Shown here: positions 43,388-47,891 of the stretch, piece by piece
Layout of the letters: each line of letters begins with the position of its first letter
Position numbering within the stretch: position 1 is the stretch's first letter
Assembly (NCBI GenBank): GCA_031550405.1
Contig: JAVBOP010000154.1
Span: 1-50,273, forward strand
DNA: 50,273 nucleotides
Reading direction: 5' to 3'
Source: Candidatus Kapaibacterium sp.
Lineage (GTDB): Bacteria; Bacteroidota; Ignavibacteria; Kapaibacteriales; UBA2268
The notes under the pieces: generated by a model
Database searches by the model: none
The model's input: the letters and a program-made list of their open reading frames with translations, nothing else
Told to the model about the DNA's origin: nothing
Translations under genes and position numbers: made by a program

Positions 43388-45316
43388 TCAATAGTTTATG
43401 TTGCAGGTGAGGGTGAATGTGCGGCCCGGCATGATGTAGTTGCTGATGATTGCGTAGCGCTCATCCAGTAAATTTTTGCAGTCGAAACGGAATGTCAAAT
43501 TAAGTCGTGAAAATATGAATTTTTTGTAAATAAATGCATCTATTGTGAAATATGACGGAAGAATTGCGCGGCTGTCATTGTCGGGCTGCGTGTAGCGGAA
43601 GCTCGAATAATCGCATTTAAATCCAAAATCAATATTTGCTAAGTCCATTTTATAAAAAATAGTTATCAGTTCATTTGGCGTGTATGGCAATTGTTTATTA
43701 TAAGTTTTTTCATCTCCAGATTTATCTATTGTTTTTTGCAAAGTGTATGACAGATTAAAACTATTTATGAATAAAAATTCATCAATAAGCGACAGAGAAA
43801 ATTCCAGTCCGGATGAAACCGCCTTATCCAAATTCTGCGCAGTCCAACTTATTGGCGTTTTCGGCATCGAAACTATCATGTCCTCAACAGGCAGATAAAA
43901 TCCTTCGACCTCAAAAAACAAATAATCCATCATGCTATACTGCATACCGAGATTAAAACTATTCGATTTTTCAGGCTTTAAATTCTTATTTCCATAGTTC
44001 CGATAATACATTTCATTGAAATTTGGCGGGCGAAAATTATGGGAAAAACTGGTTTTTGCGCGGACAGGAAATCCAGAAATCGAATATATCGCACCGGCAA
44101 GAGCGGAAAAAGCCGAGTATGAATCGCTGATATAATCAACTCGAACACCTGCATTCGCCGCAAGCTGCTGCGCACCGAAATCAAAATTTTTCTCAATGCG
44201 GTAGGATGCTGCAAGCGTTGTCCGGTGCACATTGGAGTCCACATCCGGATCAAGCATACTCCCACTCAAAGTGCTGTAGAAGGCGTTGGCAAGTATCTCA
44301 TTATAAAAATTTGCAGCATGGAACGTATATTTTGAGTTTATGCCAAAATCTTTTAACCGAAAATCGCTATTGGGCTGAGATGTTTTTTGAGGCTCCAAGT
44401 AGCTGCTATTATTCGACATAGCTATTCCTGAGAAAAATATGGATGAAGAATCGCTAAGAAGTTTGCCTGTATGCAATAGAAATATGAATTTTTTTTCATC
44501 CATTCTGTCGTTACTTTGACTTACATTTCCCTGTAAAACCGCACCGGGTATGCCTTTGTCAATAGAGCTATATATGCCTCTGCCCCAAAGATTCCAATCG
44601 CCTATATTGGTTTTGCCCAGCATTGATAGCGAAAGATTGGCATAATCTGCATTCTGCCTTTTAGCCGTTACATCCTCGCCAAACTGATTGCAGGTAAATG
44701 GATAGTCGCCATTTGAAGCCAAATAATTCACACTACCCGATATATAGCTGCTACTTACAGGGATACTGCCTGTTAAATTCACCCCCAGTTCTCCAAAAGA
44801 TCCTGCCAGAATAGAGGCCTTCAGCATATTCTGAGGTATGAGGTCAGTACGTATATTCACCGCCCCGCCAACGGCATTACCGCCAAAAATAGCAGAAGCT
44901 CCGCCGCGCATGATTTCAATATTATCTATCACAGGTACCGGTAAATCGCCAAGGTTATAGCTACTGTTCTGCGTGGAGCTTATGGGCATTCCATCGAGCA
45001 ATATCAACGTCCGGGAGCTGCCAAGTCCACGTACGGCTACGGTTTTGATGCCGCCCAAGCCGCCATAATCCTTAACTGCCACACCGGGGGATATGCTCAG
45101 TATATCAGAGATTTGGATGGGTGCAAGGCTGCTTATTTTATCATTTCCAATGACAGATACGGGCGAAAAATTCATTGCGGAACTGGTTAATATCCTGCTG
45201 CCGATAACCTCTATTTCCTGAATAGCCTTGCTCGCTGCAAGCGTATCATCTGCTTGTCGGGCAAGGGCATTAATATTTATAGTCAAGAGAAAATATACGG
45301 CAAATATATGTTTCAT
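43388..45316 (-). CDS. TonB-dependent outer-membrane receptor
   Basis: Has a signal peptide, a plug region (IEVIGSR, DILSISPGV, VAVRGLG, ILLDGMP, IEIMRGGASAIFG) and a barrel ending in an aromatic residue. Start moved to the ATG at 45316. Confidence 0.85.
   Translation of the reverse strand: MKHIFAVYFLLTININALARQADDTLAASKAIQEIEVIGSRILTSSAMNFSPVSVIGNDKISSLAPIQISDILSISPGVAVKDYGGLGGIKTVAVRGLGSSRTLILLDGMPISSTQNSSYNLGDLPVPVIDNIEIMRGGASAIFGGNAVGGAVNIRTDLIPQNMLKASILAGSFGELGVNLTGSIPVSSSYISGSVNYLASNGDYPFTCNQFGEDVTAKRQNADYANLSLSMLGKTNIGDWNLWGRGIYSSIDKGIPGAVLQGNVSQSNDRMDEKKFIFLLHTGKLLSDSSSIFFSGIAMSNNSSYLEPQKTSQPNSDFRLKDFGINSKYTFHAANFYNEILANAFYSTLSGSMLDPDVDSNVHRTTLAASYRIEKNFDFGAQQLAANAGVRVDYISDSYSAFSALAGAIYSISGFPVRAKTSFSHNFRPPNFNEMYYRNYGNKNLKPEKSNSFNLGMQYSMMDYLFFEVEGFYLPVEDMIVSMPKTPISWTAQNLDKAVSSGLEFSLSLIDEFLFINSFNLSYTLQKTIDKSGDEKTYNKQLPYTPNELITIFYKMDLANIDFGFKCDYSSFRYTQPDNDSRAILPSYFTIDAFIYKKFIFSRLNLTFRFDCKNLLDERYAIISNYIMPGRTFTLTCNINY
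43765..43784. repeat. Weak palindromic motif match inside the TonB-receptor gene (TTATGAATAAAAATTCATCA)
   Basis: The left half is perfect and the right half has 1 mismatch. Confidence 0.3.
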
Positions 45317-45369
45317 ACATGGTCTGCAAAGAGTGGGATTAGCCTTCAACATGAATATTATTAGTGCGT

Positions 45370-45377
45370 CAAATATA
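45370..45377 (-). promoter_or_regulatory. TATATTTG candidate -7 box upstream of the TonB-dependent receptor
   Basis: 54 nt upstream of ATG 45316. Confidence 0.3.
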
Positions 45378-45539
45378 CAAAAAAATGAAGCAACGGCATA
45401 ATATATGTATATTGCGTTATTTGGTATTGTGATTATATCCGGAGCAGATACGCAAAAACAATTAATCTTATTTGCACGTAATCAATCTAATGTAAAGATA
45501 AATGTATATTCTATAACCATTGCAATACGGGAGGGCAAA

Positions 45540-46751
45540 ATGAAAGCGAAAGTGAGAAATATCAGTATAGTTGCATTAATAGCCGTATTATTGGCGGCTT
45601 GTTCTACAACCAATACTCAGGAAGACAGTTTTGGATACAGTGCGCCAAGAGTGAAAAAAGTTACTACAACCACTACTAAAGTAGCAACTACCACTCAAAC
45701 TACCACTACTACTGTCAATGACGACGGCAGTATCACTGAAACTACAACCACATACCCCGAAGAAGAGACCTATGTTGAAAGTGGAGGACTTATCGGAACA
45801 GATATTTTTACAACCACCGAAACAACATCAAGCGGGAGTACCATAATCAATAACTACTATGTAAATGACGGATATAGCACAGGATACTATCCATATTGGG
45901 GCTGGGGAGGATGGTATGTAACCATTGGCTGGGCATGGTCTTATCCATGGTATTACTATAACCCATACCCGTATTACGCATATTCATATAACCCGTACCC
46001 ATATTATGGCTATGGCTGCTATCCATACGGCGGATACCCATACTACTGCGATTATTACGCCACGCCGCGCAGAGGATATTATCCTCACTATGACTATGTA
46101 GTAAAGCCAAGATATGCCACATCTGCAGGTGCAAGAACAGGCTACAGGCAAAGCTCCCGCACCGAAGCACGGTCATCTGCTTCGACAACAGGAAGGACAG
46201 CTCCTGTAAATAGCAGGACAGCTTCGGGCAGAAATGGCGTATCGGAAAGAACATCCACTTTACCGTCAGGCATGTCGAGCACCGCGGATAGAGATGGCAA
46301 CAGCAATGCACGCACAGGCGCATCGACTGCTACAAACGAAAGGCAGGGAGCAACATCTGCAACAGGAACTCAAACTGCTACAAGCCGGCGAGCACAGCCT
46401 GATGCCTCCACCAATTCAAATGGAGAGGCTAACAGGGAAAGAAATATGAATACAGGCAGAGAGGCTAATACACGTACAAATGCCGGCAGTACGTCAACTA
46501 CAGGCAGAGAAAGAAATATGAACACGGGCGTGCAGCAGCGAAGCGGACGCGAAGAATCTGCTCCTGCAAACAGAGCGCCAAGCACAACAAGGCAGGAGGC
46601 TGCACCTCAACCTCAACCGTCGCGCAATAATAGCAACTATTCATCGCCTGCTCCATCACGCAGCAGTGCACCAAGTGCTCCGAGCAGTGGTGGAAGGAGC
46701 GGCAGCAGTGGTAGCAGCAATTCAGGCGGACGTACAGGCGGCAGAAGATAA
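45540..46751 (+). CDS. Lipoprotein of extreme low complexity (Thr-rich, then Tyr/Pro/Trp/Gly-rich, then Arg/Ser/Thr/Asn/Gly-rich)
   Basis: A GGGAGG RBS precedes the ATG at 45540. Has a lipobox (VLLAACSTT). There are no stops across about 400 codons in a locally G+C-richer stretch. No family recognised. Confidence 0.6.
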   Translation: MKAKVRNISIVALIAVLLAACSTTNTQEDSFGYSAPRVKKVTTTTTKVATTTQTTTTTVNDDGSITETTTTYPEEETYVESGGLIGTDIFTTTETTSSGSTIINNYYVNDGYSTGYYPYWGWGGWYVTIGWAWSYPWYYYNPYPYYAYSYNPYPYYGYGCYPYGGYPYYCDYYATPRRGYYPHYDYVVKPRYATSAGARTGYRQSSRTEARSSASTTGRTAPVNSRTASGRNGVSERTSTLPSGMSSTADRDGNSNARTGASTATNERQGATSATGTQTATSRRAQPDASTNSNGEANRERNMNTGREANTRTNAGSTSTTGRERNMNTGVQQRSGREESAPANRAPSTTRQEAAPQPQPSRNNSNYSSPAPSRSSAPSAPSSGGRSGSSGSSNSGGRTGGRR

Positions 46752-46778
46752 CCTGCTTAAGAAAAAATTGTTGTACCC

Positions 46779-46838
46779 AAAGTTACACGGAATGTATTTG
46801 AGAATATCAATAGCACTTTGTGTAACTTTCTTTTTTTT
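46779..46838 (+). terminator. Long-loop hairpin plus T8: terminator of the lipoprotein gene or an attenuator before the DAHP synthase gene
   Basis: Perfect 10-bp stem AAAGTTACAC (46779-46788) / GTGTAACTTT (46820-46829), a 31-nt loop, then CTTTTTTTT. The next ATG is 25 nt further on. Confidence 0.5.
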
Positions 46839-46862
46839 GTTTTATCTTATCCCATTTTATTT

Positions 46863-47891
46863 ATGGAAAATAACGAAGATTTATTAAAAAAAATTAATAT
46901 ATTGCGCGAACAGGTGAATGATATTGATAATCACCTCGTCGAACTGTTGGCTAAAAGGAAAGGAATTACAAATGAATTAATTCAGCAAAAAATTGATGCA
47001 ATGCTTCCGGTTTTAGACAAACAGCGTGAAAGGGAAATAATAAGTAAGCATATACAAAATATAGACATAATCAATGAAACATTTCTAAATAAATTTTTCC
47101 ATTTACTTTTCGAAGATTCCAAAAGGCAATACTACAAATATGAAAATTTATTTAGCATTCATGACTATATTTGCAGGAGACCCATCATAATTGCAGGTCC
47201 ATGCGTTGTAGAAAATGAATTACAAATTAACACAATTGCAGAAAAATTGTCATCTTATGGTATAAAATTTTTGCGTGGCGGCAGCTTTAAACCGCGAACT
47301 TCGCCAAACAGTTTTCAGGGTTTGGGCAATGAAGGCGTAAAATTGCTGTCAGAAGCCGCTAAAAAAAATAACATGTATTCTGTAACTGAGATATTAGAAA
47401 TAGAGCAACTTGTTAAAAACTATGAACTTATAGATGTTGTGCAAATTGGAAGCCGCAGCATGACATCCTATGGGCTTTTGAAATCCGTGGGCAATATGAC
47501 TGCTAAAGACGGAAAATATGTTCTGCTAAAACGCGGCTTTTCGGCAACTTTGAGCGAATTTTTGAATGCCGCAGATTATATTTTGCAGGCTGGCAATCCG
47601 AACGTTATTCTTTGCCTGCGTGGCATTAGAACTTTCGAACAAATCGACTCAAATTTGCGCTTTACTCCAGACTTGGCAAGCATTTTGGAGCTTCGCGGAA
47701 GGACAGAGCTGCCTGTAATATTTGACCCGTCGCACTCAACGGGCAAGGCTAATTTTGTTGTCGACATTTCAAATGCGGCGCTAAATATTGGCGCAGACGG
47801 CTTGATAATAGAAGTGCACAACCAGCCTTCTACTTCGGAAGTTGATGCAATGCAAGCCATTATCCCTGAAAAAATTTTAGATATCATATAG
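46863..47891 (+). CDS. Bifunctional chorismate mutase / 3-deoxy-7-phosphoheptulonate (DAHP) synthase, type I-beta
   Basis: N-terminal AroQ-type CM helix (LREQVNDIDNHLVELLAKRKGIT) fused to a KDSA/AroA-like barrel (IAGPCVVE, LRGGSFKPRTSP, DPSH). Start moved to the ATG at 46863. Confidence 0.85.
   Translation: MENNEDLLKKINILREQVNDIDNHLVELLAKRKGITNELIQQKIDAMLPVLDKQREREIISKHIQNIDIINETFLNKFFHLLFEDSKRQYYKYENLFSIHDYICRRPIIIAGPCVVENELQINTIAEKLSSYGIKFLRGGSFKPRTSPNSFQGLGNEGVKLLSEAAKKNNMYSVTEILEIEQLVKNYELIDVVQIGSRSMTSYGLLKSVGNMTAKDGKYVLLKRGFSATLSEFLNAADYILQAGNPNVILCLRGIRTFEQIDSNLRFTPDLASILELRGRTELPVIFDPSHSTGKANFVVDISNAALNIGADGLIIEVHNQPSTSEVDAMQAIIPEKILDII

What the first reader, a model, noticed from the sequence alone, without database searches (positions are those of the whole stretch)
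45540..46751. Lipoprotein built from three extreme low-complexity blocks
After a lipobox (LLAACSTT) the protein has three blocks. The first is Thr-rich (TTTTTKVATTTQTTTTT..TTTETTSS). The second is about 90 aa, almost entirely Tyr/Pro/Trp/Gly, with tandem NPYPYY units (YYPYWGWGGWYVTIGWAWSYPWYYYNPYPYYAYSYNPYPYYGYGCYPYGGYPYYCDYY). The third is about 230 aa of Arg/Ser/Thr/Asn/Gly/Ala, with a duplicated RERNMNTG unit (DNA at about 46435-46457 and 46506-46529) and an SGGRSGSSGSSNSGGRTGGRR tail. The gene is visibly G+C-richer than its surroundings. It has a strong GGGAGG RBS and is divergent from a TonB-dependent receptor. I recognise no family. The aromatic block resembles adhesive, mineral-binding or phase-separating sequences, and the basic tail would bind polyanions.
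Basis: seen in the sequence. Interest (0 to 1): 0.6.

Follow-up and report, generated by a model that had tools for sequence, protein, structure and literature searches.

The report
Disordered tyrosine-rich lipoprotein, barrel partner unlinked
This is a real, conserved gene for a lipid-anchored, almost entirely unfolded envelope protein (threonine block, tyrosine/tryptophan block, arginine/serine tail) from an unnamed family that in nearly all relatives is encoded just upstream of its own FadL-type outer-membrane barrel; here the two genes have been separated, and the function is untested.

Summary
ORF 45540-46751 (+) encodes a 403-aa lipoprotein with the three blocks described. It has a GGGAGG ribosome-binding site and is followed by a terminator-like hairpin.

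It is not a spurious ORF. With a family profile, intact homologues occur in 109 of 130 genomes (51 of 55 genera) of the same family, whose relatives are named Candidatus Kapaibacterium. No Pfam, NCBIfam or PDB family matches.

The extra G+C lies only at codon position 2. It reflects amino-acid bias, not foreign DNA.

The neighbouring TonB-dependent receptor is incidental. The conserved partner is a roughly 480-aa FadL-fold barrel:
- It co-occurs with the lipoprotein (106 genomes with both, 14 with neither).
- It lies directly downstream in 97 of those 106 genomes.
- In this window's clade the pair is split: the barrel is on another contig, and the lipoprotein sits upstream of chorismate mutase/DAHP synthase.
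- The barrel, usually with an upstream Tyr-rich, Arg/Ser-tailed lipoprotein, is found across Bacteroidota.

AlphaFold2 predicts disorder from residue 81 onward. The tail has 30 Arg and no Lys.

My best reading is inferred, not shown. The conserved N-terminus docks on the barrel, as BamH docks on BamG, and displays a sticky Tyr/Arg chain at the outer membrane. Function and topology remain unknown.

The parts
45527..45532 (+). GGGAGG Shine-Dalgarno-like site, 7 nt upstream of the ATG
   Evidence: Read directly from the sequence. The start at 45540 gives a standard lipoprotein signal peptide, as in all homologues.
45540..46751 (+). Coding sequence of the 403-aa lipoprotein (P0001), stop codon included
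   Evidence: ORF list and translation. Intact homologues occur in 109 of 130 genomes of the same family. The profile search of 1.84 billion representative proteins gives 242 hits at E<=1e-3 and 29 at E<=1e-30, nearly all matching from residue 1.
45540..45602 (+). Signal peptide and lipobox (LLAA|C), with lipidated Cys21 at 45600-45602
   Evidence: Cys21 is invariant in alignments A2 and A4. AlphaFold2 predicts a helix over residues 2-21. The six residues after Cys (STTNTQ) contain no acidic residue. By the rule quoted in PMC12578637 this means no Bacteroidota lipoprotein export signal.
45624..45638 (+). Conserved N-terminal motif DSFGY (family consensus [DE]-Y-F-G-Y-N-N), 8-12 residues after the lipid anchor
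   Evidence: Gly32 and Tyr33 are at least 90% conserved over 27 sequences from 20 or more genera. This is the best-conserved element outside the lipobox. It is the proposed docking element, which is an inference.
45657..45839 (+). Acidic Thr-rich block (residues 40-100) ending in GGLIGTDIFTTTE
   Evidence: 25 Thr in 61 residues, net charge -7. AlphaFold2 predicts three strands (41-48, 51-59, 65-73) with pLDDT 83-90. The G-x-I-G-T-D-I-F motif is shared only with the closest clade.
45840..46109 (+). Aromatic block (residues 101-190): TIINNYY, then the Tyr/Trp/Pro/Gly run with two NPYPYY units, ending in HYDYVVKPR
   Evidence: Y31, W6, P11 and G11 in 90 residues. I103, N104, N105, Y106, Y107, P136, W137, Y138, Y139 and D185-R191 are invariant in the three-sequence alignment. 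pLDDT is below 50.
46110..46748 (+). Basic, Lys-free Ser/Arg/Thr/Ala/Gly/Asn tail (residues 191-403) ending in GGRR
   Evidence: S40, R30, T29, K0, net charge +17, pI 11.9. The proxy proteome has K 6.8% against R 3.5%. pLDDT is below 50 throughout. The C-terminus is basic in all 27 family members.
46433..46457 (+). First copy of the duplicated unit encoding RERNMNTG
   Evidence: the repeat finder family D3, reference copy.
46505..46529 (+). Second copy of the duplicated unit encoding RERNMNTG
   Evidence: 88% identical to the first copy, 72 nt downstream.
46779..46842 (+). Terminator-like hairpin (13-bp stem, 46779-46829) followed by TTTCTTTTTTTTG, between the stop codon and the chorismate mutase/DAHP synthase start
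   Evidence: RNA fold of 46745-46870: -27.3 kcal/mol, z = -3.9, and 0 of 200 shuffles fold as well. No Rfam family matches in 45200-47000.
46863..47891 (+). Downstream neighbour: bifunctional chorismate mutase/DAHP synthase. It is the clade-specific syntenic partner, not part of the protein's machinery.
   Evidence: Pfam CM_2 and DAHP_synth_1. The same gene lies directly downstream of the orthologue in G016, G002 and G078.

Best explanation
The gene encodes an outer-membrane lipoprotein that is almost entirely intrinsically disordered.

It belongs to an unnamed family found throughout the Kapaibacterium-like family. By shared architecture and gene order it also belongs to a lipoprotein-plus-barrel gene pair found across Bacteroidota.

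Its working partner is a dedicated FadL-fold 14-stranded barrel. In this genome that barrel is at contig C198:11556-13031.

Inferred mechanism:
- The short conserved stretch just after the lipid anchor (C-x7-D-S-F-G-Y) docks on the barrel. It docks next to the barrel's equally conserved N-terminal tail (AQ-x-[IV]-E-[DN]-A-L).
- This is how the N-terminus of BamH is wedged into BamG in the Bacteroidota BAM complex.
- The barrel thereby fixes a long flexible chain at the outer membrane. That chain is an acidic Thr-rich beta-meander, a Tyr/Trp/Pro block, and a Lys-free Arg/Ser tail with a basic C-terminus.
- The Tyr/Trp block and the Arg tail supply multivalent weak contacts, either with themselves or with anionic envelope components. 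The role would be structural or assembly-assisting, not enzymatic.

Shown: the gene is real and conserved, the chain is predicted to be disordered, the barrel has a FadL fold, and the two genes co-occur and are adjacent in relatives.

Inferred: physical docking, the membrane face it occupies, and the function of the disordered chain.

In this clade the two genes have been separated, and the lipoprotein gene is a separate unit with its own RBS and terminator-like hairpin.
For: Real, selected gene:
- Open frames without stops in 109 of 130 genomes and 51 of 55 genera, and also in other families and orders of the class.
- The lipobox Cys is invariant and the [DE]YFGY motif is nearly invariant.
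- There is selection for Arg over Lys: 30 to 0 in the tail, against a proteome K:R ratio of about 2:1.

Disorder: AlphaFold2 with a 27-sequence alignment gives pLDDT below 50 for residues 81-403, apart from a few isolated residues.

Partner barrel:
- 106 genomes carry both genes, 3 only the lipoprotein, 7 only the barrel, and 14 neither. Fisher p = 3e-11, not corrected for phylogeny.
- The barrel lies directly downstream on the same strand in 97 of 106.
- The barrel model (pLDDT 73) best matches BamG of B. thetaiotaomicron (9hiv_F, E = 1.5e-20) and of F. johnsoniae (9n2d_B), then E. coli FadL.

Phylum-wide pair:
- The barrel family is in 207 of 301 genomes and 128 of 144 genera.
- In 18 of 20 sampled loci from other families, an upstream gene encodes a Tyr/Trp-rich exported protein (usually with a basic Ser/Arg-rich tail), 14 of them lipoproteins. 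It lies directly upstream of the barrel in most, with a small ORF between in some. In 12 of the 18 the N-terminus is C-Y-T-[QKR]. The barrel N-terminus AQxxxDALR[YF] is conserved.

Precedent for N-terminus-to-N-terminus docking of a lipoprotein on a FadL-type barrel: PMC12578637 and PMC12611786.
Against: - No physical interaction was tested, and no complex prediction could be run.
- Here and in five related genomes of three genera the two genes are unlinked. Co-regulation is therefore lost, and the protein may act alone.
- The target lacks the YVPVIVPWW and R-x-FGPSRG motifs that most family members share. Its clade may have changed function.
- There is no acidic export signal after the Cys. 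BamH has one, so the topology may differ from BamH.
- The barrel profile finds no PDB sequence at E <= 10. The BamG similarity is at fold level only and barely better than FadL.
- hhalign between this family and the phylum-level upstream proteins aligns only the signal peptide and lipobox. Homology of the disordered parts is not demonstrable.
Confidence: 0.5

Rival explanations
1. The barrel is a dedicated exporter or threading channel, and the lipoprotein is its cargo rather than a stable subunit. The disordered chain would pass through the barrel lumen or its lateral opening to the cell surface. This resembles RcsF threaded through OmpA/C/F, or Slam-dependent surface lipoproteins. It would replace the missing acidic export signal.
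For: The six residues after Cys contain no acidic residue, here and in most homologues. The chain is unfolded and could be threaded. There is strict co-occurrence and gene order with a FadL-type barrel, which has a lateral opening.
Against: FadL-type lumens are plugged by their own N-terminal hatch. No FadL-family protein is known to translocate polypeptides. The RcsF and Slam parallels are recalled from general knowledge and were not tested here. The gene pair is split in this clade.
Confidence: 0.15
2. In this clade the protein acts alone. It would be a periplasm-facing outer-membrane lipoprotein whose Arg-rich tail binds anionic envelope polymers (peptidoglycan, lipid head groups, polyphosphate or DNA) and whose Tyr/Trp block self-associates. 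The result would be a tether or gel-like layer independent of the barrel.
For: Here the genes are unlinked, and the lipoprotein gene has its own RBS and terminator-like hairpin. There is no export signal. The tail carries net +17 with 30 Arg and 0 Lys. The clade has lost the YVPVIVPWW and FGPSRG motifs.
Against: The N-terminal D-x-F-G-Y motif is retained in all six genomes of the split clade. All six also keep the barrel, and five of them keep an intact AQFIEDALRF N-terminus. Genomes lacking one gene mostly lack the other. No binding data exist.
Confidence: 0.2
3. This is the first reader's idea: a surface adhesin or a mineral-binding protein, with the aromatic block as glue and the basic tail binding polyanions outside the cell.
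For: Composition only.
Against: There is no export signal and no type IX secretion C-terminal domain, although the genome has PorV. Conservation across 51 of 55 genera, and of the pair across the phylum, points to a housekeeping envelope role rather than a niche-specific adhesin. The short-tailed members (73-77 aa tails with K about equal to R) keep the core and lose most of the basic tail.
Confidence: 0.07
4. The position upstream of chorismate mutase/DAHP synthase is functional. A gene whose core is 41% Tyr+Trp would be coupled to the first step of aromatic amino-acid synthesis, either as a supply match or as a translation-dependent sensor.
For: The same adjacency occurs in G000, G016, G002 and G078, which represent three genera. 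A hairpin plus T-run lies between the two genes.
Against: The adjacency is absent in G141 and G077 of the same genera, and in the 97 genomes where the barrel follows instead. The Tyr-rich codons lie about 700 nt upstream of the hairpin, too far for classical attenuation. No Rfam element was found.
Confidence: 0.04
5. It is a spurious ORF in compositionally biased DNA.
For: Other frames are also open across the region, for example 45847-46323 (-), 158 aa.
Against: There are intact full-length orthologues with a signal peptide, lipobox and conserved motifs in 109 genomes. GC3 is equal to that of neighbouring genes. An RBS and a terminator flank the ORF.
Confidence: 0.01

Closest known systems
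BamG-BamH (and the BamG2-BamH2 operon) of the Bacteroidota BAM complex (PMC12578637, PMC12611786; PDB 9hiv, 9n2d, 9hjm)
   Same: Both pair a FadL-fold 14-stranded barrel that has a conserved N-terminal tail with a lipoprotein whose conserved N-terminus lies next to the lipid anchor. The paralogue pair BamG2-BamH2 is an operon. BamG chains are the top structural matches of this genome's barrel.
   Different: - BamH is a folded, crescent-shaped surface lipoprotein with an acidic export signal. This protein is predicted to be disordered from residue 81 and has no such signal.
- The barrels here are 470-540 aa, against 390-406 aa for the BamG chains in the PDB.
- The barrel profile shows no sequence similarity to any PDB chain, BamG included, at E <= 10.
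- No link to BamA was tested.
Fjoh_4940 (lipoprotein) / Fjoh_4941 (FadL homologue) of Flavobacterium johnsoniae, mentioned in the TamL study (PMC12045153)
   Same: An adjacent lipoprotein and FadL-like barrel in a Bacteroidota genome. Both were detected in membrane proteomes and both rose on TamL depletion. Earlier scan notes equate this pair with the family seen here.
   Different: I could not obtain the Fjoh_4940 or Fjoh_4941 sequences, so I did not verify that they belong to this family. The paper assigns no function beyond a possible functional link.
Tyrosine-rich extracellular loop 3 of Bacteroidota BamA (PMC12578637)
   Same: A disordered Tyr/Gly/Asn-rich segment at the outer membrane, with 13 Tyr in 38 residues and no cryo-EM density. 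It is conserved across the phylum and its function is unknown. The composition resembles the aromatic block here.
   Different: It is a loop within a barrel, not a lipoprotein, and it has no Arg/Ser tail. The resemblance is compositional only.
PorV-PorU and PorQ-PorZ of the type IX secretion system
   Same: FadL-type barrels that hold partner proteins at the outer membrane. This genome has a clear PorV.
   Different: PorV is a separate gene (contig C151, E = 1e-48 to 6h3i_F). The partner barrel here belongs to a different family, and the lipoprotein has no T9SS C-terminal domain.
Eukaryotic FUS-type proteins (Tyr-rich prion-like domain plus Arg-rich RGG/RS domain)
   Same: A Tyr-rich low-complexity block is combined with an Arg-rich, Lys-poor low-complexity block in one chain.
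   Different: Those proteins are cytoplasmic or nuclear RNA-binding proteins and are not homologous. The parallel comes from general knowledge of composition, and no phase behaviour was tested.

Membership tests
Bacterial lipoprotein (Lgt/LspA substrate) | N-terminal signal peptide ending in a lipobox [LVI][ASTVI][GAS]C | tested here: met
   MKAKVRNISIVALIAVLLAA|C. The Cys is invariant in 27 homologues. Five family members hit Pfam LPAM_1 weakly.
   E = 2.3e-26 over profile positions 1-189. The target was part of the profile. Independent support is the first search with the single protein, which found G016 at 1.3e-22 and G002 at 4.7e-10.
Kapaibacterium-family Tyr-rich lipoprotein family (unnamed) | Core motifs YVPV[IV]VPWW and R-x-FGP[SG]RG, shared by most members | tested here: not met
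   The target clade has GY--YYPYW and DYV-x-PR/G-A-R-T-G at these positions. It is a divergent subgroup.
Lipoprotein-plus-FadL-type-barrel gene pair of Bacteroidota (unnamed) | The barrel gene lies immediately downstream on the same strand | tested here: not met
   In G000 the barrel is on contig C198, next to a MoxR-like ATPase gene. Adjacency holds in 97 of 106 family genomes.
Lipoprotein-plus-FadL-type-barrel gene pair of Bacteroidota (unnamed) | The genome also encodes the cognate barrel (A5 family, N-terminus AQ-x-I-E-D-A-L-R) | tested here: met
   G000:C198:11556-13031, E = 1.8e-187 (this sequence is the first row of profile A5, so that score is by construction). Independent support: the single G052 barrel protein found it at E = 2.6e-58 with 35% identity. 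It has a FadL fold. Its N-terminus, AQAVENALHI, is diverged.
BamH (Bacteroidota BAM surface lipoprotein) | [quoted passage not shown] | tested here: not met
   The protein is predicted to be disordered. STTNTQ after the Cys has no acidic residue. There is no sequence hit to any family or PDB-derived model. Binding is not testable with these tools.
BamG (FadL-type BAM subunit), for the partner barrel | Sequence-level homology to BamG and association with BamA | tested here: inconclusive
   BamG chains are the best fold matches (E = 1.5e-20), but FadL follows closely at 4e-17. The barrel profile finds no PDB sequence at E <= 10. The genome has a further unassigned NPAGL barrel on C88 that could be BamG.
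DUF3300 (PF11737) | Match to the Pfam model | tested here: not met
   No member reaches E <= 10. hhalign to a DUF3300 protein aligns only 14 columns around PWW.
Type IX secretion cargo | C-terminal sorting domain | tested here: not met
   No Pfam or NCBIfam hit. The C-terminus is a disordered basic tail.

The most novel reading that the evidence does not exclude
Bacteroidota, including this Kapaibacterium-like lineage, may build an undescribed outer-membrane element. In it a lipid-anchored Tyr/Trp 'sticker' block joined to a Lys-free Arg/Ser chain is nucleated at a dedicated FadL-fold barrel. The chain would form a multivalent, condensate-like or gel-like layer, or act as an ATP-independent holdase, at the membrane. 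It might cooperate with the unexplained Tyr-rich loop of BamA. The split gene arrangement in this clade would then show that the chain can be expressed independently of its barrel.
Probability: 0.15. Interest if true: 0.85.

Novelty: new variant of a known kind. Interest (0 to 1): 0.6.

Why it matters
The discovery of BamG-BamH in 2025 showed that FadL-type barrels in Bacteroidota serve as docking platforms for lipoproteins, not only as lipid channels.

This gene belongs to a second, far more widespread barrel-lipoprotein pairing. The barrel is in 128 of 144 sampled genera of the phylum, and no paper describes it. Its lipoprotein is almost wholly disordered and has a composition otherwise known from eukaryotic phase-separating proteins.

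If the pair forms a complex, it is an unstudied and probably important component of the Bacteroidota cell envelope. It is also a rare case of a conserved, extracytoplasmic, intrinsically disordered bacterial protein under clear selection: Arg is kept and Lys excluded in an AT-rich genome.

The present locus adds a natural experiment. In three genera the two genes have been uncoupled, yet both are retained.

Tried and rejected
Searches and tests that led nowhere:
- Pfam and NCBIfam scans of the protein, and of all 27 core sequences, gave nothing beyond lipobox models.
- A word-seeded search of 5.8 billion proteins with the single sequence gave no hit. With the family alignment it gave 20 hits, all unnamed.
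With the three-sequence alignment it gave no confirmed locus. With the short-tailed subgroup it gave the organism names.
- A DUF3300 relationship was rejected: only 14 aligned columns and no HMM hit.
- TonB_C fusion proteins such as P0004 share the aromatic module, but low complexity inflates that score. I did not build on it.
- hhalign of the family against the phylum-level upstream proteins aligned only the signal peptide and lipobox, and the shuffled controls were clean. I therefore do not claim sequence homology of the disordered parts across the phylum.
- The xINNYY motif is enriched: 11 of 27 family members and 4 of 18 phylum-level proteins, against 14 of 1498 background ORFs. This is weak evidence in Tyr/Asn-rich sequence.
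- The barrel profile against PDB sequences gave no hit.
- Rfam found nothing in 45200-47000. The sigma-70 and terminator consensus scans were at chance level. No plus-strand TAnnTTTG lies in the upstream spacer.

Ideas rejected:
- Foreign origin, rejected by GC3.
- Contingency-locus or repeat-length variation, rejected by the lack of tandem repeats.

- dN/dS was not attempted, because the closest relatives are only 35-49% identical and synonymous sites would be saturated.
Full report
**1. What is in the sequence**

The plus-strand ORF 45540-46751 encodes 403 residues. GGGAGG lies 7 nt upstream of the ATG. The longer ORF from 45405 adds 45 residues with no counterpart in any homologue.

The product starts with a textbook lipoprotein signal, MKAKVRNISIVALIAVLLAA|C. 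Its composition by block is as follows:
- Residues 40-100 contain 25 Thr and carry net charge -7.
- Residues 101-190 contain 31 Tyr, 6 Trp, 11 Pro and 11 Gly.
- Residues 191-403 contain 40 Ser, 30 Arg, 29 Thr, 27 Ala, 24 Gly, 19 Asn and no Lys. The net charge is +17, and the protein ends in GGRR.

The duplicated RERNMNTG unit is real: 46433-46457 and 46505-46529 are 88% identical. There are no long tandem repeats.

The gene is richer in G+C than its surroundings. The excess is confined to codon position 2, which is 0.64 overall and 0.76 in the tail. GC3 is 0.387, the same as in alaS, the receptor, mlaE and the aro gene at 0.36-0.42. The G+C signal therefore follows from Ser/Arg/Gly/Ala/Thr/Pro codons and says nothing about origin.

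A 13-bp hairpin followed by a T-run sits 28 nt after the stop codon (z = -3.9). With its own RBS and this terminator-like hairpin, the gene looks like a separate transcription unit. No Rfam family matches the region.

**2. It is a real, conserved gene**

No Pfam or NCBIfam model matches. A single-sequence search of related genomes nevertheless found two intact homologues. They share a lipobox, D-x-F-G-Y, GG-x-IGTDIF, TIINNYY, an aromatic block, DYV-x-x-PR, an S/T/R tail and a terminal GGRR.

Iterating to a 27-sequence core profile (A4) gave open, stop-free homologues in 109 of 130 genomes and 51 of 55 genera of the same family. It also found homologues in other families and orders of the class. 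Named relatives are 'Candidatus Kapaibacterium' and Ignavibacteria MAGs.

Against 1.84 billion representative proteins the profile finds only 242 sequences at E <= 1e-3. Nearly all match from residue 1. This is a small, lineage-restricted, full-length family.

The best-conserved elements are the lipobox Cys, the [DE]-Y-F-G-Y-N-N motif 8-12 residues after it, an I-x-N-N-Y-Y/YVPVIVPWW segment, DWY-x-PWY-x-Y-x-PYYGY, R-x-FGPSRG, and a basic C-terminus. The target and five genomes of three genera form a divergent subgroup. This subgroup keeps the N-terminal motif, INNYY and GGRR, but lacks YVPVIVPWW and FGPSRG.

It is not met.

**3. Predicted structure**

AlphaFold2 with the 27-sequence alignment gives mean pLDDT 49. 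Only two elements are confident: the signal helix, and a three-stranded beta-meander in the Thr block (residues 41-73, pLDDT 83-90). From residue 81 to the C-terminus, pLDDT stays below 50 apart from a few isolated residues.

The tail excludes Lys completely, although the organism's proxy proteome has twice as much Lys as Arg. Across the 27 family tails, Arg outnumbers Lys 468 to 157. A short-tailed subgroup (73-77 residues, with K about equal to R) shows that the long tail is dispensable in some lineages. The core and the basic C-terminus are kept even there.

**4. The conserved partner is a FadL-fold barrel, not the TonB-dependent receptor**

The divergent receptor gene is not conserved next to orthologues. 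Their upstream neighbours are a penicillin-binding protein or release factor 2.

In most relatives the lipoprotein gene is instead followed directly by a gene of about 480 aa. Its product starts AQFIEDALRY after the signal peptide and carries the NPAGL motif. It has no Pfam, NCBIfam or PDB sequence match.

Its homologue in this genome lies on contig C198. The AlphaFold2 model of that protein (pLDDT 73) is a FadL-type barrel. The best PDB matches are BamG of B. thetaiotaomicron and F. johnsoniae, followed closely by E. coli FadL.

Across the 130 family genomes, 106 have both genes, 3 only the lipoprotein, 7 only the barrel, and 14 neither. Fisher p = 3e-11, uncorrected for phylogeny, and several of the singletons are fragmented assemblies. 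In 97 of the 106 the barrel is immediately downstream on the same strand.

The nine exceptions fall into two groups:
- Three are in fragmented assemblies (420-650 contigs), so non-adjacency there is uncertain.
- Six belong to one group of three genera: G000; G002, G077 and G078; and G016 and G141.

In that group the barrel sits in varied contexts. The lipoprotein lies upstream of chorismate mutase/DAHP synthase in four of the six genomes.

**5. The pair extends across the phylum**

The barrel profile finds homologues of 470-540 aa in 207 of 301 phylum-level genomes and 128 of 144 genera. These are distinct in length from the BamG chains in the PDB, which are 390-406 aa.

I fetched 20 loci from other families. 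In 18 of them, an upstream gene encodes a signal-bearing protein, usually a lipoprotein. It lies directly upstream of the barrel in most, with a small ORF between in some. This protein has a 60-residue window of 22-47% Tyr+Trp and usually a Ser/Thr/Gly/Asn/Arg tail ending in a basic C-terminus. Its N-terminus is mostly G-C-Y-T-Q-[LF]. The barrels share AQ-x-x-x-D-A-L-R-[YF]-S-Q at their mature N-terminus.

Two further metagenomic examples show the same order.

Profile-profile comparison of the disordered proteins aligns only the signal peptide and lipobox. The phylum-wide link therefore rests on barrel homology, gene order and shared architecture, not on alignable sequence.

Earlier notes of this scan reached the same picture from other genomes. 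I treated them as leads and re-derived the points above independently.

**6. How it most likely works**

Two 2025 structures of the Bacteroidota BAM complex provide a precedent. BamG is a FadL-type barrel whose extended, highly conserved N-tail threads through the lateral opening. [quoted passage not shown] The paralogues BamG2-BamH2 form an operon (PMC12578637, PMC12611786).

The same pattern appears here. The two most conserved elements are the lipoprotein's first residues after the anchor and the barrel's first residues after signal cleavage.

I therefore infer that the lipoprotein docks through its N-terminus on its barrel. The barrel would then display the disordered Tyr/Trp block and Arg/Ser tail at the outer membrane. 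What the chain does there is unknown. Its sticker-like composition suggests multivalent weak binding, either to itself or to anionic envelope components. A Tyr-rich disordered loop of unknown function also exists in Bacteroidota BamA.

The membrane face is also unknown. The six residues after the Cys contain no acidic residue. By the rule used in the BAM paper, this predicts retention on the periplasmic face, unless the barrel itself provides export. That alternative is one of the rival explanations.

This protein is not a BamH family member:
- It is disordered.
- It lacks the export signal.
- It has no sequence similarity to BamH.

The barrel's similarity to BamG is at fold level only. The genome also has a clear PorV and a third NPAGL barrel that may be the true BamG.

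**7. Limits**

- No complex prediction was possible.
- The F. johnsoniae pair Fjoh_4940/4941 was detected by proteomics and rose on TamL depletion (PMC12045153). I could not verify that it belongs to this family.
- The co-occurrence statistic is not phylogeny-corrected.

**8. Verdict**

The gene is a divergent member of an uncharacterised lipoprotein family. Its barrel gene has become unlinked, but across Bacteroidota the family is paired with a dedicated FadL-fold barrel.

It is best described as a new variant of the 'FadL-type barrel plus docked lipoprotein' kind. The lipoprotein itself is unusual and almost wholly disordered. Interest is moderate to high because the pair is widespread, clearly under selection and unstudied. 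The mechanism remains inferred.

Noticed in passing
window 46751-46863 and 46863-47891; also L002/L004 (G016), L003/L005 (G002), L006 (G078): A lipoprotein whose core is 41% Tyr+Trp sits directly upstream of bifunctional chorismate mutase/DAHP synthase in four genomes of three genera, but not in G141 or G077. A strong hairpin plus T-run lies between the two genes here. In an unrelated Bacteroidota locus (L045), shikimate kinase lies two genes from the homologous pair. This may be coincidence or a supply link.
   Followed up: partly
G000 contig C12:19137-19781 (+), outside the window: A 215-aa lipoprotein with an otherwise ordinary sequence carries an insert DWWYDYDWWYWYWDWYPYDWYYPYYPY, which is 40% Tyr/Trp over 60 aa. 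It is the only other hyper-aromatic ORF in the genome.
   Followed up: no
G000 contigs C151:17564-18652 (+) and C88:3886-5037 (+), outside the window: The genome encodes a clear PorV (phmmer E = 1e-48 to PDB 6h3i_F), so it has a type IX secretion system. It also encodes a third NPAGL-motif barrel with no PDB sequence match, which could be its BamG or PorQ.
   Followed up: partly
G000 contig C198 (L033, L053): In this genome the partner barrel gene lies directly downstream of a MoxR-like AAA ATPase gene, and dnaJ is convergent with it. In the other genomes of the split clade the barrel has different neighbours.
   Followed up: partly
proteins P0004, P0009, P0010 (metagenomic) and P0014: The aromatic block plus S/R tail, with repeated SYSAPSRSS units and a GGSRR end, also occurs fused behind a TonB C-terminal domain (P0004, PF03544, E = 6.5e-20). 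A similar tail follows a DUF3300 domain (P0014). The disordered module seems to be portable between periplasmic and envelope proteins.
   Followed up: partly
tails of family members (alignment A2, columns 500-600): A short linear motif [ST]-Y-[ST]-x-P-[SA]-[RS]-S recurs in the tails of many members. Examples are SNYSSPAPSRSS in the target and SYSAPSRESS repeated in G077. It may be a binding or modification site.
   Followed up: no
same-order genomes of families f2 and f3: Several small-genome families in the same order lack both the lipoprotein and the barrel. Liu et al. note that the Chlorobiota lack BamG and BamH. The identity of these unnamed families was not checked.
   Followed up: no
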